A stretch of DNA of 64,000 nt from a bacterium (GCA_027623425.1 JAQBTH010000001.1:1485-65484); one strand, 5' to 3'; shown: positions 26,903-46,452, numbered from the stretch's first letter. The notes: a model not told the origin generated them from the sequence alone. Made by a program: numbers and translations.

Positions 26903-26978
26903 GATCCGGTAGCTCAGCCGGTAGAGCACCTGACTTTTAATCAGGTGGTCGTGAGTTCGAACCTCACCCGGATCACCA
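26903..26978 (+). tRNA. tRNA-Lys (TTT)
   Basis: GATCCGG acceptor, anticodon stem-loop CCTGA-CTTTTAA-TCAGG, GTGAGTTCGAACCTCAC T-arm, encoded CCA. Confidence 0.9.
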
Positions 26979-26979
26979 T

Positions 26980-27984
26980 TTATTCTATGGAACTAGTGCG
27001 CCACAATTCTGACAATCTAGACGACCCATCAAAACCACCCACCACATAAATTTGATTTTTAAAAACCACCTGTTGATGGGCAGAACGACCACCCCATTTT
27101 ATGGAACGGCTCGCCAAACGCTGCCATTCAATTCCGTTTGTACTAGACCATGCATCACTTAAATAATTTCCATTTACTCCACCAGACACCACGATATTCC
27201 CTTCATACACGCAAACACTATGTAACGTACGGCCTGACCACTTATCATCAGTCAAGACCCGAGACCAAGCCGCCCCATCTTCACTGGTCCATATATCACT
27301 AGAAAACAAGTCATTTCGTCCCCCTAACAGCCATAACCGATCGCTATGCACAACCATTTTATGTTCGGTTATGCCGCCAAACGTAGCAGCATCTGTCACC
27401 TGCTCCCAGGTCACCCCATCCGTACTGCGCCACACATCCGATTGATTGGCGCCGTCTGAGCCTCCAACCAACCACAACGCATCTTGAAACGCCGTCACCG
27501 TGTGCGATTCACGACCACCCCAGGCGGCATTTTCAGTTACCGATTCCCACGACAATCCATCATCACTGACCCACACATCACTCAGATAGTCACCATTAGA
27601 ATAGCCCCCAATCAGCCATAGCTGCTCTTGGTACACAACAAGAGAATGGCCACTTCGCCCATCCCACGGCCTATCCGGCTCAACCGATGCCCAATCCACA
27701 CCATCGTCACTAAACCACACATCATTTTGGTAGCCACCAGTATACCCACCAACAAGCCATAATTTATCTTTAAAAACAACCACTCGATGCCCGGTACGAG
27801 CTGTCCATGCGCCATGATTAACACTTTCCCAGCCCGCAACTGAAATAAGTGATTGAGCGGTCACAATGGACTCACTACTTGAGCTAAGGTCTGTGATCGA
27901 CTCTGTCGCTGCGCCATTGCAACCAATGAACGCGACAGATGTAACAACAGCCAGAAGCCATACTTGGCACCGATATCCCCCCAT
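26980..27984 (-). CDS. Kelch-like beta-propeller lipoprotein (6-7 tandem ~48-aa repeats …R.GH..VVF.D.LWL.GG……DVW.S.DG..W…)
   Basis: Lipobox VAFIGC after an N-terminal signal peptide; tandem repeats visible in the translation. Confidence 0.65.
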   Translation of the reverse strand: MGGYRCQVWLLAVVTSVAFIGCNGAATESITDLSSSSESIVTAQSLISVAGWESVNHGAWTARTGHRVVVFKDKLWLVGGYTGGYQNDVWFSDDGVDWASVEPDRPWDGRSGHSLVVYQEQLWLIGGYSNGDYLSDVWVSDDGLSWESVTENAAWGGRESHTVTAFQDALWLVGGSDGANQSDVWRSTDGVTWEQVTDAATFGGITEHKMVVHSDRLWLLGGRNDLFSSDIWTSEDGAAWSRVLTDDKWSGRTLHSVCVYEGNIVVSGGVNGNYLSDAWSSTNGIEWQRLASRSIKWGGRSAHQQVVFKNQIYVVGGFDGSSRLSELWRTSSIE

Positions 27985-28087: not shown

Positions 28088-28669
28088 ATGCCTTACCTAA
28101 GCTTTCCCTATTTGCCCATTTCAATTACACTAATAAAAATGAGATACACCCTCCTAGCATTACTATTATGTATAAGTTCAGAGCTAGCCGCCGCACCACA
28201 AAACCAAGTTACAATTGAAACGGATGCGTTCATTTTTAACACCCAAAAACAAAGCGTCGCCGCATCAAAAAGCGTCTATATCAATTATGGAAATTTAAAC
28301 ATTCAAAGCGACTCTGCGGCATATTCAAGCATCAAAAATACCCTTGAAATAAAAGGAAACGTACTCGCCCAGCAACACAACACGACCATACGCAGCAATC
28401 TATTGATTAGCAATTTAAAAACAGGCATTATTTACGCACCCCAACCCATGATATTTAAGCACAATGAAATTTTCGGGAAATCCGAGAACAGCCACTACAA
28501 CACCCGATCTCAAGTACTAACATTAAAAGGAAAACCGCAAATTACCGAAGGAAAAAACACACTAGAGGCCGATGAAATAACCTTCGATTTCAAAACAAAC
28601 AAAGTGAAGTCTAGAGGTAAAACAAAAATATCCGTTTCCGAAACAACGGACATACCAAACGACATATAA
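28088..28669 (+). CDS. Periplasmic LptA/OstA-N-like protein (putative LPS transport); the likely true start is ATG 28139 (MRYTLLALLLCISS… signal peptide)
   Basis: Signal peptide plus a beta-jellyroll-like …ITADxxxY…GNV… pattern; weak. Confidence 0.45.
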   Translation: MPYLSFPYLPISITLIKMRYTLLALLLCISSELAAAPQNQVTIETDAFIFNTQKQSVAASKSVYINYGNLNIQSDSAAYSSIKNTLEIKGNVLAQQHNTTIRSNLLISNLKTGIIYAPQPMIFKHNEIFGKSENSHYNTRSQVLTLKGKPQITEGKNTLEADEITFDFKTNKVKSRGKTKISVSETTDIPNDI

Positions 28670-31878: not shown

Positions 31879-32527
31879 ACTAAAACTAGTGGCACTTCTT
31901 CTCACGGTGATGCCTGCCACCCATACTATGGCCGCAATACACCATGTGCCAGACGCATTAGTGGCCGAACAACAGGTATTTGAACAGCGGCTTGCCGAGA
32001 ACTACAACGCGGAAAACTTATTCGAACTGGCCATGATTTACGCGATGAGCGGATGGATCGAATTGGGATGGGACACCTTAAAACAAATTCCAGATTATGA
32101 TGAAGACTACCATAAAACAGTCTTATCAAAATACGGTGCACTAATCCAGAAAAACCCAAAGGTTTGGCAATACCATTTCAAAATCGCATTTGGGCATTAT
32201 TTCGATAAGAATAAAGTCGAAGCGCAAAACTCATTTCAACGCGCCCTTGAATTAGCCCCAAAAAACCCATGGATCATGGGGCTACTCGGCTTAGTCGTTG
32301 GTGAACAAAAAGACTATGAACGCACCATCAAATTAGCAAAAAAAGCCCTCAAAATAGAACCCGATGGTGCCGCACTTCACTTTCTATTGGGGTTAGCCTA
32401 CAAAGAAACTGGGCAGTATTTCGGCATGATTGGACAGGCGACACAGGTAGCGCGATTAAAATCTGCAGAAGCAAAATACCGCCCCGTACCGCCACAAGAC
32501 CCTAAAAAGAAAAGCCACGATAAATGA
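31862..32527 (+). CDS. Secreted TPR-repeat protein
   Basis: Signal peptide MPHKTKLKLVALLLTVMPATHTMAA (ATG at 31862); TPR-like …ALELAPKNPW…LAYKETGQY… repeats. Confidence 0.6.
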   Translation: MPHKTKLKLVALLLTVMPATHTMAAIHHVPDALVAEQQVFEQRLAENYNAENLFELAMIYAMSGWIELGWDTLKQIPDYDEDYHKTVLSKYGALIQKNPKVWQYHFKIAFGHYFDKNKVEAQNSFQRALELAPKNPWIMGLLGLVVGEQKDYERTIKLAKKALKIEPDGAALHFLLGLAYKETGQYFGMIGQATQVARLKSAEAKYRPVPPQDPKKKSHDK

Positions 32528-33093
32528 AAATAAAATCACTCATTTTAAATAAAATGGTACTTACCTACGCGCTTATCTTATCTGGATTTACAGCCTTACT
32601 TTTATTTGTGGTGCACCCACCCAATATTGTGGATTTGAAAATAACGCCCTTTAACAAACCCGATTACAGCTTTCAAAATGTCACTATCTCACTAATTGAA
32701 GATGGAAATCCAACCTGGGAAATTGATGCTCAGTACGCCGCCATCGACAAGAAAAAAGCACTGACAACCCTGCAAACAGTAACCGGAAATATATTTTCAA
32801 ACGACTCCAAAAAAGTATTTCATTTCACATCACCTGTAAGCACCTACCATCTTAATAAACAGGAAATGAAAATTAACCTACCAGAAACCATTATTTATGC
32901 AGCGCAAGACCCCATTTACCTGTCATGCGACACGATCACCTGGTCACCACAAAAAAACACACTTGAGGGCGTTGGAAACATCATAACAAGATACAAAAAC
33001 ACCGTGATGAAAAGCCGGAAGTTTTCAGCCGAACTCCCCATAAAAAATATCGCCTTTTCTGGCAAAGCGTCGATGACAATTAACCTAGATTAA
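32524..33093 (+). CDS. LptC-like membrane-anchored protein (putative LPS export)
   Basis: 189 aa, N-terminal TM anchor followed by a beta-rich domain; weak similarity. Confidence 0.4.
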   Translation: MKIKSLILNKMVLTYALILSGFTALLLFVVHPPNIVDLKITPFNKPDYSFQNVTISLIEDGNPTWEIDAQYAAIDKKKALTTLQTVTGNIFSNDSKKVFHFTSPVSTYHLNKQEMKINLPETIIYAAQDPIYLSCDTITWSPQKNTLEGVGNIITRYKNTVMKSRKFSAELPIKNIAFSGKASMTINLD

Positions 33094-33286
33094 TTAGCAA
33101 CTACGACAAAAGCAGTGAGTTTACACCCACTGCGATTATCATTAACAAAAAGCCTGCCCTTAAACTTTCATACTAAATTTATCGATCAGAACATAAAATT
33201 CTTAAAGTCGCTAAATTTCTAATGTCCACACCTCTTGGTACCCATCAGTTGCAGCATTAAAACCACCCATCACCCAAATTTTGCCC

Positions 33287-34487
33287 TCAAACGAGGCACA
33301 AGACATCATCGATCGGCCAACCCACTGGGGAACCCGTCACTTGTAACTGCGTCCACGTGGCCCCATCAGAGGAATACCATACGTCAGGATGATACACATC
33401 TTCGGGGGTATTTTCTTCTCCACCAATCATCCAAATTTTACCCTCATGCACTAAGGTACAATGGGAACTACGTTCAGACCAGATGTCTCCGGTTATAGGC
33501 ACAACGTTCCAGTTTGCGCCATCCGACGTATTCCACACATCATTGGCCGAATTACCATCACCCAAATACCCACCAATAATCCACATTTTATTATTAAATA
33601 CAATCGCATCCATATATGCTCGGCGAGACCAATGATGCACAGACTGCTCTATTTCAGACCAATTCGTACCATCTGTGGAGCTAAACACATCATAATCATA
33701 GTCACCAAAATCTTCATCTGCACCACCCATAATCCATAACTTATCTTTAAATACCGCCGATGCCGCATAATTCCGTGATGTAAAACCCGCATTATCCGTT
33801 GCCTGAACCCAAGTAATACCATCTTCGCTATACCACACATCGTTTAATTTATTATCCGCAGCATCATCGCCTGCAAATAACCACAATTTGTCATTAAATA
33901 CCTGCAACTCAAAATCATCGCGTTTTGAAAAATTAGCCGAAGACGTTAGCTCCGTCCAAGTCGTACCATCAGTTTTATAGACATCGTTATACAACGCAGA
34001 TTCATCCCCTTGACCGCCCACGATATAAAGTTCATTATTGAACACCGCGGCAGCAAACCCTTGCCGTCCCGCCCAAGGTGGTGTTGTTTCTTGCTTCCAT
34101 TGTGCAGACGTCACGTTCGCTACAAAAGTTGTGGTTATGGTCTCATCCAATATAGCCGTCGCCGTAATGGTCACAGAACCTGTCGCAATACCACTAATTA
34201 CACCAGACCCACTTATAGAGGCCAATGCAGAATCATCTAAGGAGTATGTAACCGCTTGTTGAAGCACCGGCAGGTAAAGCCGAAACACTCAACGAACGCC
34301 CCAAACCAATAAATACATTTTGTGTACTTGCAGAAACGGAAATACTAGTTGGCGGAGTTAATGAATCCGAACTACTGCTACTTGAATCATCGTTAGACGA
34401 GATAAGCGACCCACAACCTGTTACCACGCCTAAAACCAACATAATACATAAGACAATGCCTTGTTTTAATTTATTCAAAAACCCCAA
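33287..34487 (-). pseudogene. Kelch-like beta-propeller lipoprotein with an N-terminal Big_2-like domain, interrupted by a frameshift (pieces 34233-34487 and 33287-34288 overlap at 34233-34288)
   Basis: The upstream piece has lipobox VTGC plus the first half of the Big_2 domain; the downstream piece continues the Big_2 domain (…VTYSLDDSALASISGSGVISGIATGSVTITATA…) and then the Kelch repeats; a paralog is intact. Confidence 0.6.
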
Positions 34488-34595
34488 CTCCTTTGACCCT
34501 TAATAGATTGAGTTATCGGCAAAAATTATCATTTTCATTAACCTAAAATTACCGCCAATTGTCGAATAGTGGTTTCACTAGTATGCTTATGCGTG

Positions 34596-35357
34596 ATGAA
34601 GAAAATACAAAAAAAGAAAAAACATAATCCATACAAATTGAATTTAGGGCAGTTTATTGCCAGCCAAACGCCCATGGCACGGCGTAAAGTAATGGAATTA
34701 TTAACAAGTGGCAGAATTTTAGTAAATGGCACCATCGCCACAGACATCACCACGCCCATCATACCCAATCGCGACATTGTAACCGTAGACGGTAAAGCGC
34801 TAAGCAGCGGACTAAACTTGGTCTATTACAAATTTTTCAAACCTGGCAACGTGATTTGTACCCTGCATGACCCCAAAGGGCGCCGTACCATCAAAGATTA
34901 TACCGACCGATTAACCGAATCCGTGTTCCCCGTTGGTCGCCTAGACCGACCAACTAAAGGCTTAATTCTACTAACAAACGACGGTGCTTTAGCCCATCGC
35001 ATCCTACACCCGTCTCACGAACTCACAAAAGTCTATGAGGTTCAAATTGACCTACCCATTAGCAAAGACCATCTCGCTCGTCTTACGTCAGGCTTCTTTC
35101 TAGATGACGGGCCTGTGATTTTTCAAAAGGTCGTTTCTCACACACGCACAGAACTCACTGTAACCATTACCGAGGGCCGAAATCGCATCATTAGACGTGC
35201 ATTTGCCTTCTTTGGTTATGATGTAAAAAAATTGGTACGCACCCACATTGGCCCAATTACCCTTGAAGGTGTAAAAGAAGGCCGAATCGAACCCCTCACC
35301 AAAAAAGAATTAGAAGCGCTAGATGTGTTAATAACACAACCTGGATCACGCTACTAA
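34596..35357 (+). CDS. RsuA/RluB-family rRNA pseudouridine synthase
   Basis: S4-like N-terminus, PVGRLD catalytic motif, …HPSHELTKVYEV… region. Confidence 0.8.
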   Translation: MKKIQKKKKHNPYKLNLGQFIASQTPMARRKVMELLTSGRILVNGTIATDITTPIIPNRDIVTVDGKALSSGLNLVYYKFFKPGNVICTLHDPKGRRTIKDYTDRLTESVFPVGRLDRPTKGLILLTNDGALAHRILHPSHELTKVYEVQIDLPISKDHLARLTSGFFLDDGPVIFQKVVSHTRTELTVTITEGRNRIIRRAFAFFGYDVKKLVRTHIGPITLEGVKEGRIEPLTKKELEALDVLITQPGSRY

Positions 35358-35506
35358 CGAGCACCGCGACGTGAGAGGGGGAGGCTCCAGTTAGGGCCCT
35401 TGCCCGCTGGAGGGGGCGACGCTAGCCCCATATATTAGAAGCGCTAGATGTGTTAATAACACAACCTGGATCACGCTACTAACGAGCACCGCGACGTGAG
35501 AGGGGG
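35309..35506. repeat. Perfect 73-bp direct duplication (35309-35381 and 35434-35506) of the 3' end of the pseudouridine-synthase gene, separated by a 52-bp spacer containing palindromes (AGGGCCCT; CTCCAG…CTGGAG)
   Basis: Both copies read ATTAGAAGCGCTAGATGTGTTAATAACACAACCTGGATCACGCTACTAACGAGCACCGCGACGTGAGAGGGGG. Confidence 0.8.
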
Positions 35507-35563: not shown

Positions 35564-35640
35564 GGCGGCGTAGCTCAGTTGGTTAGAGCACACGGCTCAT
35601 ACCCGTGGCGTCACTGGTTCAAATCCAGTCGCCGCTACCA
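35564..35640 (+). tRNA. tRNA-Met (CAT), elongator-like
   Basis: GGCGGCG acceptor (G1:U72), anticodon stem-loop CACGG-CTCATAC-CCGTG, TTCAAAT T-loop, encoded CCA. Confidence 0.85.
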
Positions 35641-41475: not shown

Positions 41476-41560
41476 ACATTACCTCACTTCTATTATATCG
41501 AATACTAACATACACCAAATTCACTTTAGCGTTATTCCACTTCTAGCGACCACACATCAT

Positions 41561-41974
41561 CTAGCTCAGTCGAAGCATCTCGACCAGCAAACAGCCAAAT
41601 TTTACCGTCACACTCCCTGTGCTCACACCTGTTAATACGCCATCCTCGTCTATCGTGGCGTTATTCGTCGCATCCACACTCCACGTTACCAAAGAAGAGG
41701 CACCAGAAGGCAGCACACTCACCGTAAATTGACGATCAAGCCCGATGTTTAATGTAGCAGTAGCGCTAGTAAATGAAAGTGATGTAGGCAATGTCGTGCC
41801 ATCGCCTTCTTCGTCATCAGAACTTTCATTATTATCTGTGTTCGGCAATAAATCCGAACCGCCATCAAGGCTTGTACACGCACCAATGAACGCAAAAACA
41901 AACAAAAAACACAGCACTAAACCCAATTTACTTTTTGTTTTCATAAGTAGTTTATCGGTGAAAATGTAATCCAC
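41561..41974 (-). CDS. Lipoprotein fragment: signal peptide plus lipobox (FIGAC) and a Big_2-like domain only; probably a truncated paralog of the Kelch/Big_2 lipoproteins
   Basis: …SLSFTSATATLNIGLDRQFTVSVLPSGASSLVTWSV…GVLTGVSTGSVTV… parallels the N-terminus of the 33287-34487 gene; no propeller follows. Confidence 0.4.
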   Translation of the reverse strand: MDYIFTDKLLMKTKSKLGLVLCFLFVFAFIGACTSLDGGSDLLPNTDNNESSDDEEGDGTTLPTSLSFTSATATLNIGLDRQFTVSVLPSGASSLVTWSVDATNNATIDEDGVLTGVSTGSVTVKFGCLLVEMLRLS

Positions 41975-42193
41975 TTTATTCGCGACTATTTAATCCGACA
42001 ACACGCCCTACTGGGCATATCGCGGTTCTGTTCGCCTTTTATTTGTAGAATCCGTACAAAAAAGGCGGTATTTAGCCGGCTATTGCAAAGGGGATAGTAC
42101 AAGCGTACAGACCCGACGCAATCCGGCAAAATACCCCTACTAAATATCTCCATTGATTTAAAATTTTGAGGAGATTTGGATTTATCGAGAAAA

Positions 42194-42237: not shown

Positions 42238-42273
42238 GATGAAAAAGGCAAAGATGCCAAAATTTTAAATCAA

Positions 42274-42661
42274 TGGTGGAGGTGAGGGGATTTGAACCCC
42301 TGTCCAAAAGAGCCCACACAAAGGCGCTACGAGTGTAGTTTGTGAGAAAAGATTCCCCAGATGATTATCCACAAACAGATTCCCAAATAGGTATTACTCA
42401 GTGAAAGTTTCGCGTCTACCGCTGAATACGCCAGTAGTTGCTAGTTGACTAAGTGACGCCAGATCCGACTACATCAACGATAATCGGGTGACGATTGCTA
42501 ACCTAAATTAGGCAGCAAGTAGTTCAGTTTGTTTACCAAACTGAGCTGTAAGAATTTGAGCATTGTCAATTCTTGTTGTTATGCCTTTTAACGTGGCCTG
42601 GCATCTCCACGACTCGCTCCTCAGCGTAAAGTCTTCTTTTGTCGAAACCAAAAACACCCCC
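42274..42661 (-). ncRNA. ssrA: tmRNA (SsrA)
   Basis: 5' end GGGGGTGTTTTTGGTTTCGACAAAAG…, 3' tRNA-like end …CAGGGGTTCAAATCCCCTCACCTCCACCA; internal tag ORF ending …AQFGKQTELLAA-TAA (stop at 42508-42510). Confidence 0.9.
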
Positions 42662-43266
42662 AAAGGTGATTTTGCAAAGAAAATTTGCAATATCAAAGAA
42701 CCACTAATGTAACGTTAGCACAGTATAAAAAGTTACAATTTAAGTCAAGCGAAAGAGCATTTTAAGAAAATAGACCCCAGCCAGAAAAGAAGCCAGGAGC
42801 AGGGTCTGCAAGCACCCCCTCATCACCACAATCATCCCCCGCTACAATAAAGGATTTCCCTGTTCGAATTATGGGTCGTTGAAATCTTAATACAACGTCA
42901 CGAGTATCTCCAACACCATTCTCTGTAGCAGACCCGCCAATCCCAAGTTCAGCCCAACTCCACCCCATAACGTCTGAGTAGCACCCTAGTTATCATCTGT
43001 AACAGCACGCCATTTTCGAACTACAGGCATACAATTTAAAGCCAATGGGTTCAGTTTCCAAGCAATCACATCGTCTAGCCCACAACACTGACCCGCAAGT
43101 CGTTTAAACATATACTATCTCATAAATTTTAAACATTATTACTTAAATTATATATAAATATGATGAAATAATCGAACAGTAAAAAATGTGACATTTAATC
43201 ACAAAAATGCTATTCTAGTTGCGCTATTCCAGAAAATAAACCAGACACAACAATAAGGAGTTTATC

Positions 43267-44577
43267 ATGGCCCAACGCGGCATACTTGAGTACGATGCAA
43301 AGTCATTAGTAACACGTCTTTGGAACGATTATATTGGCGACTCACTAATCTGCAATTTTCGCAGCGTATTAGTGGAAACGGAAGATGAATTAGACACCGC
43401 AGCAAAAGCCCAAGACTGGCTCAATCAGCCTGGCTTAGTCGTAAAACCCGACATGCTATTTGGAAAACGCGGCAAAAACAACCTTGTGTTATACAAAACA
43501 ACCACAGCCGGAGACGTATCATTGGCCGATGCAAAAAAATGGATACACGAAAAACGCATCAACGAAATCGCCTTATTAAATGGTGAAAAAGGCTGGTTGC
43601 GTCGGTTCATTATAGAGCCGTTTGTGCCCCACTCTATAGAGCAAGAGTACTACATTAGTTTTAGAAGCGAAACAGAAAACGATGTCATGGCAATATCAGC
43701 CTGTGGCGGCGTGGATATTGAAGAAAATTGGGACACCGTTACCGAAGTATTCATACCTGTATTAAGCGAAGATAAAGAAGCTAAGAATCTAATTTTGTCT
43801 CAAATTCCAGATGAAATCCAAGAACGCAATGCCGTTGGCACGCTCGCCGTTGGTCTTTACAGTTTATTTAAAGACCTACATTTCGCCTACCTCGAATTAA
43901 ACCCATTTGTCATAGAAGGCAATACCATTCATTTATTAGATATGGTCGCCAAATTAGATGATACCGCTGGCTATTTAATGCAAGAAGAATGGCAAGGCAT
44001 CGAGTTTCCGTCTGGCTTTGGGCGCGCAGGCTTAACAAAAGAAGAGAAATTCATTACAGAACTAGACGAAAAATCAGGTGCCAGTTTAAAACTAACCATC
44101 CTTAACCCAAAAGGCGTCGTATGGACATTAGTAGCAGGTGGCGGCGCATCCGTTGTATTTGCGGACACGATTGCCAACACATGGGGAGCAAATGAGCTGG
44201 CTAATTACGGCGAGTATTCTGGCAACCCCAACACCGAAGAAACCTACTACTACACAAAAACAGTTCTAGACTTAATGACCAGAGAAAAAGACGATAAAGG
44301 CCGCAACAAAATTCTACTTATTGGTGGCGCCATCGCAAACTTCACTGATGTCGCAAGCACCTTTAAAGGCATCATTCAGGCCATGGAAGAATACGCCCCT
44401 AAAATGCGCGAAATTGGCGTGCAAATTTATGTACGTCGCGGTGGGCCTAACTATGAAATTGGCCTTCGTAACATTAAAACAGCCGCCAAGAAATTAAAGC
44501 TACCCATTGATGTATACGGACCAGAAACCCATATGACTGATATCGTCGCAATTGCGATGGAAGACGCCAACGCCTAG
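43267..44577 (+). CDS. aclB: ATP-citrate lyase, beta/small subunit (ATP-grasp)
   Basis: Strong similarity to the ACLY N-terminal part: …LDEKSGASLKLTILNPKGVVWTLVAGGGASVVFADTI…NELANYGEYSG…LMTREK…IGGAIANFTDVASTFKGI…YVRRGGPNY…. Confidence 0.9.
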   Translation: MAQRGILEYDAKSLVTRLWNDYIGDSLICNFRSVLVETEDELDTAAKAQDWLNQPGLVVKPDMLFGKRGKNNLVLYKTTTAGDVSLADAKKWIHEKRINEIALLNGEKGWLRRFIIEPFVPHSIEQEYYISFRSETENDVMAISACGGVDIEENWDTVTEVFIPVLSEDKEAKNLILSQIPDEIQERNAVGTLAVGLYSLFKDLHFAYLELNPFVIEGNTIHLLDMVAKLDDTAGYLMQEEWQGIEFPSGFGRAGLTKEEKFITELDEKSGASLKLTILNPKGVVWTLVAGGGASVVFADTIANTWGANELANYGEYSGNPNTEETYYYTKTVLDLMTREKDDKGRNKILLIGGAIANFTDVASTFKGIIQAMEEYAPKMREIGVQIYVRRGGPNYEIGLRNIKTAAKKLKLPIDVYGPETHMTDIVAIAMEDANA

Positions 44578-44592
44578 GCAAAGGAGACTAAA

Positions 44593-46452
44593 ATGAGCGC
44601 ATTATTTACACCTGATAGCAAAGCAATATTTTGGAACAATAACGTAAAAGCAATTCAACGCATGTTGGATTATGGCTATATATGCCGACGCGAAAGCCCA
44701 TCAGTTGTGGCCATCGTTCACCCAAGCAGCCAATCCAGTGTTCAAAAGTTTTTCTATGGCCCCCATGAAGTATTAATTCCCATATATAAAACCATTTCAG
44801 ATGCGGCAGAAGCCCATCCAGAAGCGGATTGCTTCTTAAACTTTGCATCATTCCGCACCGCATGGGAAACCACCATGAAAGCCATGGAATTTAATAACAT
44901 CAAAACCTTAATGGTAACCGCTGAAGGCATACCAGAACGACTAACCCGTATTATGGTCGCCACAGCACGTAAAAAAGGCAAGATGCTGGTGGGTCCCTCA
45001 ACAGTAGGCGCCATCACTCCTGGTGCGTTGAAAACAGGAAATATCGGCGGCACGATCGAAAATATTGCCAAAACAAAACTACACCGCCCAGGATCTGCTG
45101 GGCTGGTTACAAAATCCGGTGGGTTATTTAACGAACTCGCCAACATCATTTCAATCAATGGCGATGGCATTGCAGAAGGTGTTGCCGTTGGTGGTGATCG
45201 CTACCCTGGTTCTATTTTCATTGACCATTTATTACGCATGGAGAAAAACCCAACAGTTAAATATTTTGTACTTTTAGGTGAAGTAGGCGGAACGGATGAA
45301 TATGATGTTGTTGAGGCATACAAAGAAGGAAAACTAACAAAACCAATCGTGGCGCTATGCACAGGTACTGTTGCCAAACACTTATCTAGCGGCGTTCAGT
45401 TTGGGCACGCTGGGGCAAAAGCCAACTCCGATTTGGAAACCGCTGATGCAAAAAACAAGGCAATGAAAGACGCAGGCTTCAATGTACCTGACAACTTCAA
45501 TGAGTTCCCAGTGATGATCAAAGACACCTACGAAGACTTAGTGGCTAAAAACCAAGTAAGCGCCGAAGAAATTAGTGATCTTCCTGAAATTCCTGAAGAT
45601 TATTCCGCGGCTAAAAAAGAAGGCCGAGTGCGCAAACAAACCAACTTCATATGCACGATTTCCGATGACCGAGGCGATGAAGCCGTATACGCAGGTGTAC
45701 CAATTTCATCATTAGCCACGCCAGAAACAGGCTACGGAATTGGCGATGTCATTACCCTACTTTGGTTTAAAAAGCGCTATCCAAAATGGGCAACTGATTT
45801 TATTGAAACTGTACTTAAAACCGTTGCAGACCACGGCCCAGCAGTATCTGGCGCTCACAACACTCGCGTCACTAGCCGTGCCGGAAAAGACCTAGTTAGC
45901 TCAGTGGTAACCGGGTTACTGGCAATCGGCCCGCGCTTTGGTGGTGCCATTGATGGTGCTGCTAAATATTTCAAATATGGCGCCGACCAGCAATTATCGG
46001 CACGCGGATTTGTAAATTACATGAAAGAAAAAGGCGAACCAATTCCCGGGATCGGCCATCGTATTAAATCGTTGAAAAATCCAGATCTTCGCGTGAAAGC
46101 ATTAATTGAATACGCAAAGGCGAACTTTCCATCTACCGACCTGTTGGATTATGCCCGCGAGATTGAACAAGTCACCACCAGCAAAAAAGACACATTGATT
46201 TTAAACGTCGATGGCGCCGTTGGTGTGTTACTAGTAGACATGTGGAACGCACTTGGGTACTCCGATGCTGAAATTGACCAAATGATCGATTCTGGGGCGT
46301 TAAACGCATTCTTTGTTCTTGGGCGCACCATTGGGTTCATTGGCCACGCTTTGGACGAGAAACGATTAAATATGCCGCTCTATCGTCATGAATTGGATGA
46401 CATTCTGTATGATGTGGATGTCGCCGAAGAAATGACGGTTAGAGTAAAGTAA
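44593..46452 (+). CDS. aclA: ATP-citrate lyase, alpha/large subunit (CoA-binding, phosphohistidine, citryl-CoA lyase domain)
   Basis: 619 aa; GHAGAKAN phosphohistidine loop; C-terminal citrate-synthase-like domain; AAGGAG SD; 15 nt after aclB. Confidence 0.9.
   Translation: MSALFTPDSKAIFWNNNVKAIQRMLDYGYICRRESPSVVAIVHPSSQSSVQKFFYGPHEVLIPIYKTISDAAEAHPEADCFLNFASFRTAWETTMKAMEFNNIKTLMVTAEGIPERLTRIMVATARKKGKMLVGPSTVGAITPGALKTGNIGGTIENIAKTKLHRPGSAGLVTKSGGLFNELANIISINGDGIAEGVAVGGDRYPGSIFIDHLLRMEKNPTVKYFVLLGEVGGTDEYDVVEAYKEGKLTKPIVALCTGTVAKHLSSGVQFGHAGAKANSDLETADAKNKAMKDAGFNVPDNFNEFPVMIKDTYEDLVAKNQVSAEEISDLPEIPEDYSAAKKEGRVRKQTNFICTISDDRGDEAVYAGVPISSLATPETGYGIGDVITLLWFKKRYPKWATDFIETVLKTVADHGPAVSGAHNTRVTSRAGKDLVSSVVTGLLAIGPRFGGAIDGAAKYFKYGADQQLSARGFVNYMKEKGEPIPGIGHRIKSLKNPDLRVKALIEYAKANFPSTDLLDYAREIEQVTTSKKDTLILNVDGAVGVLLVDMWNALGYSDAEIDQMIDSGALNAFFVLGRTIGFIGHALDEKRLNMPLYRHELDDILYDVDVAEEMTVRVK

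What the first reader, a model, noticed from the sequence alone, without database searches (positions are those of the whole stretch)
33287..34487. Paralogous family of Kelch-like beta-propeller lipoproteins with Big_2 domains: one intact, one frameshifted, one truncated
Three loci encode lipobox-containing proteins with the same ~48-aa tandem repeat (…R.GH..VVF.D.LWL.GG……DVW.S.DG..W…):
- 26980-27984 is intact.
- 33287-34487 additionally has an N-terminal Big_2-like domain, and its reading frame breaks inside that domain (overlap 34233-34288).
- 41561-41974 retains only the signal peptide and Big_2 domain.
Kelch-type propellers are eukaryote-like interaction modules, often expanded in amoeba- or host-associated bacteria. 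The gradient from intact to frameshifted to truncated suggests ongoing decay or phase-variable expression. A genuine frameshift cannot be told apart from a sequencing error from sequence alone.
Basis: partly seen in the sequence, partly recalled or inferred. Interest (0 to 1): 0.5.

Follow-up and report, generated by a model that had tools for sequence, protein, structure and literature searches.

The report
Decaying Kelch-propeller lipoprotein gene copies
An uncultured bacterium carries three old copies of a gene for a membrane-anchored six-bladed Kelch propeller protein: one is intact and conserved, one is broken by two frameshifts, and one is gutted by an internal deletion, which is ordinary gene decay.

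Summary
All three minus-strand loci have a PROSITE-type lipobox, and Pfam places them in Kelch and Big_2 above its curated cut-offs.

- **Locus 1 (26980-27984):** an intact six-blade Kelch lipoprotein. A relative at about 72% DNA identity keeps it in the same position.
- **Locus 2:** more damaged than reported, and it runs to 33211, not 33287.
  - Frameshift 1 lies at 34253-34259 inside Big_2, outside any repeat tract. It is present in three assemblies.
It puts blade 6 in a third frame. Another assembly of the same population has C3 and reads through.
- **Locus 3:** not a simple truncation. An internal deletion fused Big_2 out of frame to the last half-blade, whose remnant with its stop codon survives at 41532-41603.

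The paralogs are old (31-40% identity) and have ordinary base composition. Homologs at 30-45% identity occur in Bacteroidota, spirochaetes, Planctomycetia and other lineages, including one archaeal hit. I found no support for a eukaryote-like, host-associated reading or for phase variation.

Verdict: recent pseudogenes of a common bacterial lipoprotein type. Interest is low.

The parts
26980..27984 (-). Locus 1: intact Kelch lipoprotein gene, 334 aa. It has a signal peptide with lipobox FIGC (Cys22), a Ser-rich linker and six Kelch blades of 47-48 aa.
   Evidence: ORF. Pfam Kelch_1 100.7 bits and PF24681 108.4 bits. Six blade-HMM domains. Lipobox. The syntenic ortholog in a relative is intact: 333 aa, 62% aa identity, dN 0.29, with dS saturated at about 1.3.
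34233..34487 (-). Locus 2, frame A: start codon (TTG 34487, or more likely TTG 34478 behind AGGAG), signal peptide, lipobox VTGC, Ser-rich linker and the N-terminal half of Big_2. It ends at a premature TGA at 34233-34235.
   Evidence: The gene caller on L003 gives 81 aa, i.e. a start at 34478. The sequence aligns with locus 3 across the break without a gap.
34253..34259 (-). Frameshift 1 of locus 2: one extra base (or two missing) between codon ACA (T77) and GCG (A78) in 'TCA ACA A GCG GTT'. There is no repeat tract.
   Evidence: Read from the sequence. Homology to the locus 3 Big_2 domain runs in frame A up to 'GAS(T)' and in frame B from 'AVTYSL'. The shift is present in the window, L003 and L004.
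33287..34288 (-). Locus 2, frame B: C-terminal half of Big_2 (profile positions 34-68) plus Kelch blades 1-5.
   Evidence: Big_2 23.5 bits at residues 11-45; PF24681 106.3 bits. Five blade-HMM domains.
33327..33330 (-). Frameshift 2 of locus 2: a C4 run. ENA scaffold_2355 has C3 here and reads through to the natural stop (P0001, 358 aa).
   Evidence: This is the only indel between the window and about 21 kb of L003. The apparent extra 100 bp elsewhere in L003 is a run of N.
33211..33336 (-). Locus 2, frame C: Kelch blade 6 and the natural stop codon. This part lies outside the coordinates given in the finding.
   Evidence: Blade HMM E=1.6e-16. Kelch_1 22 bits against a cut-off of 20.1.
41561..41974 (-). 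Locus 3 ORF: signal peptide (likely start ATG 41944), lipobox IGAC, acidic linker and Big_2 lacking its last strand (profile positions 3-66 of 79). A 13-aa out-of-frame tail follows.
   Evidence: 40% identical to the N-terminus of locus 2. Called as a 127-aa product on L003.
41532..41603 (-). Locus 3 relic: second half of the last Kelch blade, 'KIWLFAGRDASTELDDVWSLEVE', plus its stop codon, in a different frame from the Big_2 ORF. The deletion junction is at about 41597-41610 ('GTGACGGTAAAA'), where the two homologies overlap by about 7 nt.
   Evidence: Blade HMM E=8.7e-6 in the six-frame window. DNA-level repeat family D2. tblastn.

Best explanation
The window holds three anciently diverged paralogs of a bacterial lipoprotein. 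The protein has a lipidated N-terminal cysteine, a low-complexity linker, an optional Ig-like Big_2 domain, and a six-bladed Kelch beta-propeller.

The propeller most likely serves as a ligand-binding (protein or glycan) module on the cell envelope. That function is inferred, not shown.

**Locus 1** is a working gene kept under purifying selection.

**Locus 2** is a recent pseudogene.
- A 1-base insertion inside Big_2 stops translation after about 80 residues.
- That lesion is seen in every assembly that covers the site.
- In part of the population a second 1-base change (C3 to C4) also cuts off blade 6.
- No other stop codons have accumulated.

**Locus 3** is an older or more drastic wreck. 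An internal deletion of roughly 0.85-0.9 kb, judged by comparison with locus 2, removed the end of Big_2 and about 5.5 blades. It joined the stump out of frame to the last half-blade. The deletion possibly occurred through a 7-nt microhomology.

Shown here: the domain families, the fold, the lesions, their presence or absence in other assemblies, and the conservation of locus 1. Inferred: lipidation, surface or periplasmic location, ligand binding, and that the lesions abolish function.
For: - **Families and fold.** Kelch and Big_2 score above Pfam cut-offs. AlphaFold2 models residues ~130-424 at pLDDT mostly above 90. The closest solved folds are six-bladed Kelch domains (LZTR1, KLHDC2/3/10, designed SAKe6) at E about 1e-18 and target-normalised TM about 0.8.
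- **Lesions.** The locus 2 protein is spread over three reading frames.
- **Frameshift 1.** It is shared by the window, L003 and L004.
- **Frameshift 2.** It is absent from L003/P0001. It is the only indel in about 21 kb compared. A 1.27-kb target would be hit by chance about 6% of the time, which fits relaxed constraint on a gene that is already dead.
- **Locus 3.** The last-blade relic is significant.
- **Locus 1.** It is intact and syntenic in a relative, with dN 0.29 well below a saturated dS.
- **Variable slot.** In that relative the position of locus 2 is occupied by an unrelated 231-aa putative lipoprotein.
- **Precedent.** Kelch-like propellers disrupted by frameshifts and deletions have been described before (PMC9218822).
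Against: - No reads could be inspected. The three assemblies may share read sets in part: the window and L004 are identical over 1641 bp.
- No intact ortholog of locus 2 or locus 3 exists in 5.8 billion proteins, the GTDB species representatives or the JGI metagenomes (best 37-45% identity). The ancestral intact state is therefore inferred only from paralogs and distant homologs.
- The locus 3 stump (signal peptide plus most of Big_2) is still an open frame and could in principle be expressed as a small lipoprotein.
Confidence: 0.82

Rival explanations
1. Sequencing or assembly error: locus 2 is really a single intact 424-aa gene, and the frame changes are consensus artefacts of a metagenome-assembled genome.
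For: The window comes from a MAG (NCBI 'bacterium', 65,971-bp contig). Frameshift 2 lies in a short homopolymer and differs between assemblies.
Against: Frameshift 1 is not in a homopolymer. It occurs in three assemblies, and one of them (L003) differs from the window by three substitutions and one indel, so it is a separate consensus. The assemblies otherwise agree to 99.97% or better, with no other indel in about 21 kb. C4 is seen in two assemblies and C3 in one, which looks like two haplotypes rather than noise. Locus 3 is a large deletion, not an indel error, and it is identical in L003.
Confidence: 0.08
2. Phase-variable (contingency) expression: slipped-strand mispairing switches the surface lipoprotein on and off.
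For: The products are predicted envelope lipoproteins, a class that often phase-varies. The C3/C4 difference between assemblies is a length change in a homopolymer.
Against: Frameshift 1 has no repeat tract ('TCAACAAGCGG'), so it cannot revert by slippage and keeps the gene off whatever the C-run does. A 3-4 nt run is far below the tract lengths (about 7 or more) known, from general knowledge, to give useful switching rates. No tandem repeat was found at either site.
Confidence: 0.04
3. Programmed +1 ribosomal frameshifting yields the full-length protein. A candidate site is 'CUU AGA UGA' at 34233-34241, which resembles the Ty1-type CUU-AGG-C and prfB CUU-UGA sites.
For: Both breaks are +1. 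The frame-A stop is preceded by CUU AGA (the resemblance is from memory only).
Against: Homology to Big_2 switches frames about 6 codons upstream of that site. Frame B 'AVTYSL' matches the paralog's 'LVTWSV', whereas frame A 'SGYILL' does not. A shift at CUU-AGA would therefore destroy a beta-strand. The paralog at locus 3 has no shift there. The second break is absent from another assembly. No orthologs exist to show conservation.
Confidence: 0.03
4. Adaptive gene loss: the Big_2-bearing copies were inactivated because losing an exposed surface protein is advantageous, for example as escape from a phage or grazer that recognises it. This would be selection rather than neutral decay.
For: Two of the three copies, and both Big_2-bearing ones, are independently disabled by different lesions. 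The locus 2 slot is variable between relatives and holds another lipoprotein there. The lesions are recent, since no further stop codons have accumulated.
Against: There is no direct evidence of selection. Two events are few. No phage or defence genes lie nearby.
Confidence: 0.1

Closest known systems
Bacterial Kelch-repeat ('galactose oxidase'-annotated) lipoproteins and secreted propellers (Pfam clan Beta_propeller; PF01344 and PF24681)
   Same: The repeat is the same 47-50-aa unit (R..H..VVF..K.W.IGG......NDVW.S.DG..W, consensus). The proteins have six blades and often a lipobox (21 of 68 sampled). A variable N-terminal module (Ig-like, fn3 or PKD) is common.
   Different: At most 45% identity to any database protein. 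None of the top 120 hits has a precomputed Big_2 domain, so the Big_2+Kelch combination is uncommon. Two of the three copies here are disabled.
BamI of Bacteroidota (NCBIfam NF053688; Bt3727; PMC12578637)
   Same: [quoted passage not shown] There is weak HMM similarity over the propeller (E 7e-7 and 3e-10). Loci 1 and 2 lie beside LptA-like and LptC-like outer-membrane biogenesis genes.
   Different: Scores are 29-40 bits against a family cut-off of 370. BamI is largely confined to the class Bacteroidia, and this organism is not one, judged from the nearest PGK relatives. No BamA or BamH context is present. Locus 1, the only working copy, lacks the Ig-like domain.
Eukaryotic Kelch substrate-recognition domains (LZTR1, KLHDC2/3/10, KEAP1, KLHL family)
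   Same: These are the best structural and PDB sequence matches. The fold is a six-bladed Kelch propeller.
   Different: 15-22% identity. There is no BTB/BACK domain and no Cullin-adaptor context. The proteins here are exported lipoproteins. The similarity reflects a shared fold, not recent transfer from eukaryotes.
NanM/YjhT N-acetylneuraminate mutarotase (TIGR03547, PF24996)
   Same: A periplasmic bacterial six-bladed Kelch propeller, with weak HMM hits.
   Different: 29 bits against a cut-off of 256, and 33.8 bits against 45. There is no sialic-acid gene context.
Disrupted Kelch-like beta-propellers described by Pereira and Lupas 2022 (PMC9218822)
   Same: Bacterial Kelch-like propellers broken by a deletion within a blade plus a frame change, with leftover blades detectable downstream in another frame. 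This is the state of loci 2 and 3.
   Different: Their examples are highly repetitive, recently amplified propellers (blade identity about 76%). The blades here are diverged.

Membership tests
Kelch-repeat beta-propeller (PF01344 / PF24681) | Profile HMM score above the curated gathering threshold | tested here: met
   Locus 1: Kelch_1 100.7 bits (cut-off 20.1), PF24681 108.4 bits (cut-off 50). Repaired locus 2: 84.2 and 131.9 bits. Blade 6 alone in frame C: 22 bits.
Kelch-repeat beta-propeller (PF01344 / PF24681) | Tandem units of about 44-56 aa that close into a propeller, typically with six blades | tested here: met
   Six units of 47-52 aa in locus 1 and in repaired locus 2. AlphaFold2 pLDDT is mostly above 90 over residues ~130-424. 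Foldseek to solved six-bladed Kelch domains gives E about 1e-18 and TMt about 0.8.
Big_2 bacterial Ig-like domain (PF02368) | Profile HMM score above the gathering threshold (22.8 bits) | tested here: met
   Locus 3: 47.5 bits. Repaired locus 2: 34.0 bits over profile positions 3-68. ORF B alone covers only positions 34-68 at 23.5 bits. The AlphaFold2 model of this part has low confidence because the alignment had no Big_2 homologs.
Bacterial lipoprotein (PROSITE PS51257-type lipobox) | Signal peptide ending in [LIVMFWSTAG]2-[LIVMFYSTAGCQ]-[AGS]-C, with a basic n-region | tested here: met
   A regex match in all three loci and in the relative's locus 1 ortholog.
Bacterial lipoprotein (PROSITE PS51257-type lipobox) | Actual lipidation and cleavage by Lgt, LspA and Lnt | not testable with these tools
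   These enzymes are not in the window, and no experiment is possible.
BamI (NCBIfam NF053688) | Equivalog HMM score of at least 370 bits | tested here: not met
   28.9 bits (locus 2) and 40.1 bits (locus 1), over the propeller part only.
BamI (NCBIfam NF053688) | [quoted passage not shown] | tested here: met
   Met by the repaired locus 2 architecture, compared with the description in PMC12578637. Locus 1 lacks the Ig-like domain.
NanM/YjhT mutarotase (TIGR03547, PF24996) | Family HMM above its cut-off | tested here: not met
   29.3 bits against 256.35, and 33.8 bits against 45.
Phase-variable contingency locus | The frame change lies in a long homopolymer or short tandem repeat tract | tested here: not met
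   Frameshift 1 is in 'TCAACAAGCGG'. Frameshift 2 is in C4, or C3 in L003.
Programmed ribosomal frameshift | The frame change coincides with a slippery site and is conserved among homologs | tested here: not met
   Homology changes frame about 6 codons before the only candidate site (CUU AGA UGA). The paralog has no shift there. Frameshift 2 is absent from L003. No orthologs are available.
Pseudogene | Disabling lesions relative to intact homologs, with homology continuing in another frame | tested here: met
   Locus 2 is spread over three frames. Locus 3 has an internal deletion with an out-of-frame relic of the last blade.

The most novel reading that the evidence does not exclude
The Big_2-Kelch lipoproteins are exposed surface receptors or antigens of a deep-branching, uncultured diderm lineage. 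Their repeated, independent and still-polymorphic inactivation (frameshift 1 shared by all assemblies that cover it, frameshift 2 segregating, locus 3 deleted, a different lipoprotein in the same slot in a relative) would record ongoing selection for surface-protein loss or turnover, for example under phage or grazer pressure. Meanwhile the Ig-less copy next to the LptA-like gene would be a conserved accessory of outer-membrane biogenesis, analogous to BamI or BamB.
Probability: 0.08. Interest if true: 0.4.

Novelty: new member of a known kind. Interest (0 to 1): 0.15.

Why it matters
Mostly for annotation. Locus 2 should be annotated as one pseudogene spanning 33211-34487 with two frame changes, and locus 3 as a deletion remnant. 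Neither should be annotated as short 'hypothetical proteins'.

The case also gives a clean small example of successive lesions. A second lesion is still polymorphic in a gene that is already dead, in a wild population of an uncultured bacterium.

It does not bear on any open question about Kelch function. It gives no evidence of eukaryote-to-bacterium transfer or of a host-associated lifestyle.

Tried and rejected
**Searches for an intact ortholog of locus 2 all failed.**
- 5.8-billion-protein search: the best non-self hit is 37-45% identical.
- GTDB species representatives: best 42%.
- JGI metagenomes: best 42%.

**The one close relative found does not carry locus 2.** I found it through the LptC-like neighbour. 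It has the locus 1 ortholog, but an unrelated lipoprotein sits in the locus 2 slot, and its contig ends before the locus 3 region.

**Taxonomy could not be settled.**
- The source MAG is named only 'bacterium'.
- The nearest named PGK relatives are 56-60% identical and scattered over Anaerolineae, Margulisiibacteriota, Firmicutes and cyanobacteria.
- A search for the sample accession numbers in the literature found nothing.

**Horizontal transfer or a genomic island was considered.** All three loci lie near tRNA or tmRNA genes. However, GC and GC3 are ordinary, and I found no integrase and no att-like direct repeat.

**An apparent 100-bp insertion in L003 is not real.** It is a run of N at a 73-nt repeat.

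**Other items.**
- dN/dS for locus 1 is only a bound, because dS is saturated.
- A literature search for characterised bacterial Kelch lipoproteins, including in Leptospira, gave nothing specific.

Full report
**1. What is in the sequence**

*Locus 1 (26980-27984).* It encodes an uninterrupted 334-aa protein. The protein has a signal peptide ending in the lipobox FIGC, a Ser-rich linker and six tandem units of 47-48 aa.

Translating all three frames shows a third piece. The frame-B product ends in 'VTGSPVGWPIDDVLCLV*'. The next frame continues with 'QWVGRSMMSCASFEGKIWVMGGFNAATDGYQEVWTLEI*', which is a complete sixth blade with the family's usual C-terminus. tblastn with the repaired protein finds it in three frames.

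*Blade HMM.* I built an HMM from the 12 blades of loci 1 and 2 and ran it against a six-frame translation of the window. It finds:
- six blades in locus 1;
- five blades in frame B of locus 2;
- the sixth blade of locus 2 at 33214-33336, at E=1.6e-16.

Locus 2 therefore spans 34487-33211 and carries two +1 frame changes.
- The first lies between codon ACA (34257-34259) and GCG (34253-34255), in 'TCA ACA A GCG GTT'. There is no repeat tract there.
- The second is a C4 run at 33327-33330.

*Locus 3 (41561-41974).* It has a signal peptide, the lipobox IGAC, an acidic linker and a Big_2 domain that stops at profile position 66 of 79. Directly behind it, in another frame, lies 'KIWLFAGRDASTELDDVWSLEVE*'. 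This is the second half of a last blade with its stop codon.
- It scores E=8.7e-6 in the six-frame window search. The next best chance hit is at E=1.7.
- It also appears as a DNA-level match to the 'EGKIW.IGG' segments of locus 2 (family D2).

Locus 3 is thus an internal deletion of about 5.5 blades and the end of Big_2, joined out of frame. The Big_2 homology ('...GSVTV') and the blade homology ('DGKIW...') overlap on 'GACGGTA'. That overlap would fit a microhomology-mediated deletion, but this is an inference.

No other copies are in the window.

**2. Family assignments**

- Pfam places locus 1 and the repaired locus 2 in Kelch families well above curated cut-offs. It places locus 2 and locus 3 in Big_2 above the cut-off.
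- I predicted a structure with AlphaFold2 from a 68-sequence alignment. Residues ~130-424 have pLDDT mostly above 90. The Big_2 part is poorly modelled because the alignment contained no homologs for it.
- Foldseek against the PDB returns six-bladed Kelch domains first: LZTR1, KLHDC2/3/10, NS1-BP and the designed SAKe6 proteins. These score E about 1e-18 with target-normalised TM about 0.8. A sequence search of the PDB with locus 1 agrees.
- All three N-termini satisfy the PROSITE lipobox rule.

**3. Are the lesions real?**

The window is part of an NCBI MAG labelled only 'bacterium' (65,971-bp contig, locus tags O3A01_). Two other public assemblies of the same population cover locus 2.

| Assembly | Identity to window | Frameshift 1 | Frameshift 2 |
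|---|---|---|---|
| ENA scaffold_2355 (L003, 41.8 kb) | ≥99.97% | present | absent (C3) |
| Logan contig from SRR2027830 (L004, 1.6 kb) | 100% | present | present (C4) |

- In L003 the called product (P0001, 358 aa) reads through blade 6 to the natural stop.
- Over about 21 kb compared, L003 differs from the window by three substitutions and this one indel.
- A seeming 100-bp insertion in L003 is a scaffold gap of N.
- Frameshift 1 is therefore supported by at least two distinct consensus sequences, and it is not in error-prone sequence.
- Frameshift 2 looks like a second, still-segregating lesion in a gene that is already dead. It is the only indel in the compared stretch. A 1.27-kb target would be hit by chance about 6% of the time.
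- Apart from these lesions the frames are clean, so the inactivation is recent.
- I could not inspect reads. That remains the decisive test.

**4. Evolutionary context**

- The three copies are old paralogs. Locus 1 and locus 2 share 31% identity over the propeller. Locus 3 and locus 2 share 40% over the signal peptide, linker and Big_2. Their GC and GC3 match neighbouring genes.
- A relative at about 72% DNA identity (Logan contigs L027 and L028) was found through the LptC-like neighbour. It is syntenic from RsfS to the LptC-like gene.
- That relative carries an intact locus 1 ortholog: 333 aa, 62% identity, lipobox LMGC, dN 0.29 against a saturated dS.
- In that relative the position of locus 2 holds an unrelated 231-aa putative lipoprotein on the opposite strand. 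Locus 1 is thus a conserved gene, and locus 2 sits in a variable slot.
- No ortholog of locus 2 closer than 37-45% exists in the protein database, the GTDB representatives or the JGI metagenomes.
- More distant homologs are very numerous and taxonomically broad. They include Bacteroidota, Spirochaetes/Brevinematales, Leptospira, Planctomycetia, Melainabacteria and Neomarinimicrobiota, plus one protein hit named Methanoregula.
- The homologs share the consensus R..H..VVF..K.W.IGG....NDVW.S.DG..W, and about 30% have a lipobox.
- This is a common bacterial envelope-protein type. Nothing points to eukaryotic origin or to a host-associated lifestyle. The organism's phylum could not be fixed.

**5. 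Mechanism and rivals**

*Best explanation (confidence about 0.8).* This is ordinary gene decay of two redundant Big_2-Kelch lipoprotein paralogs, while a third Ig-less paralog is maintained.

*Phase variation* is rejected because frameshift 1 has no slippage-prone tract and the C-run is only 3-4 nt.

*Programmed +1 frameshifting* was considered because the frame-A stop is preceded by CUU AGA. It is rejected for three reasons.
- Big_2 homology changes frame about six codons upstream of that site ('AVTYSL' against the paralog's 'LVTWSV').
- The paralog has no shift there.
- The second shift is absent from another assembly.

*Assembly error* keeps a small probability until reads are checked.

*Adaptive loss of exposed surface proteins* cannot be excluded, but there is no evidence specific to it.

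**6. Comparison with known systems**

- The closest architectural analogue among characterised proteins is BamI of Bacteroidota. [quoted passage not shown]
- The NCBIfam BamI model scores only 29-40 bits against a cut-off of 370, so these proteins are not members of that family.
- Loci 1 and 2 lie next to LptA-like and LptC-like genes. That proximity is noted, but it rests on two syntenic genomes only.
- NanM/YjhT also fails its cut-offs.
- Disrupted Kelch-like propellers with out-of-frame leftover blades have been described before (PMC9218822).

**7. Verdict**

The loci are new members of a known kind, and their interest is low.

Noticed in passing
window 35309-35381 and 35434-35506: A perfect 73-nt direct repeat. 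The 3' end of the RluB-like gene, including its stop codon, is duplicated 125 nt downstream, just before tRNA-Met (35564-35640). ENA scaffold_2355 has a 100-N scaffold gap exactly here. The repeat is therefore either a real duplication or an assembly problem.
   Followed up: partly
window 26903-26978, 35564-35640, 42274-42661: All three Kelch/Big_2 loci lie beside small-RNA genes. tRNA-Lys abuts the stop of locus 1 with a 1-nt gap. tRNA-Met is about 1 kb from locus 2. The tmRNA gene (tag DNAQILTAQFGKQTELLAA) is 300 nt upstream of locus 3. I found no integrase and no att-like repeat.
   Followed up: partly
L027 10491-11186 (relative; corresponds to the window slot 33094-34568): In a relative at about 72% DNA identity, the position of locus 2 holds an unrelated 231-aa ORF with a lipoprotein-like N-terminus ('...ALINGC') and no Pfam match. 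The slot after the LptC-like gene appears to be a variable lipoprotein site.
   Followed up: partly
window 28088-28669 and 32524-33093: An LptA/OstA-like gene (PF03968, 48 bits) lies divergent to locus 1. A weak LptC-like gene (21.5 bits, cut-off 21) lies convergent to locus 2. Between them are TrxB, a GATase, a GT2 glycosyltransferase and a TPR protein, so this looks like an envelope-biogenesis neighbourhood.
   Followed up: partly
window 43240-46452: Two adjacent genes (about 445 and 624 aa) have ATP-grasp_2, citrate-binding and related domains. They resemble the two subunits of ATP-citrate lyase, which is unusual outside autotrophs that use the reductive TCA cycle.
   Followed up: no
window 42150-42168 / 42258-42276: A 19-nt perfect inverted repeat with an 89-nt loop. 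Its right arm overlaps the 3' end of the tmRNA gene.
   Followed up: no
window 16857-17193: RNase P RNA (bacterial class A, 290.7 bits) lies directly after a large 821-aa ORF of unknown function (14356-16821).
   Followed up: no
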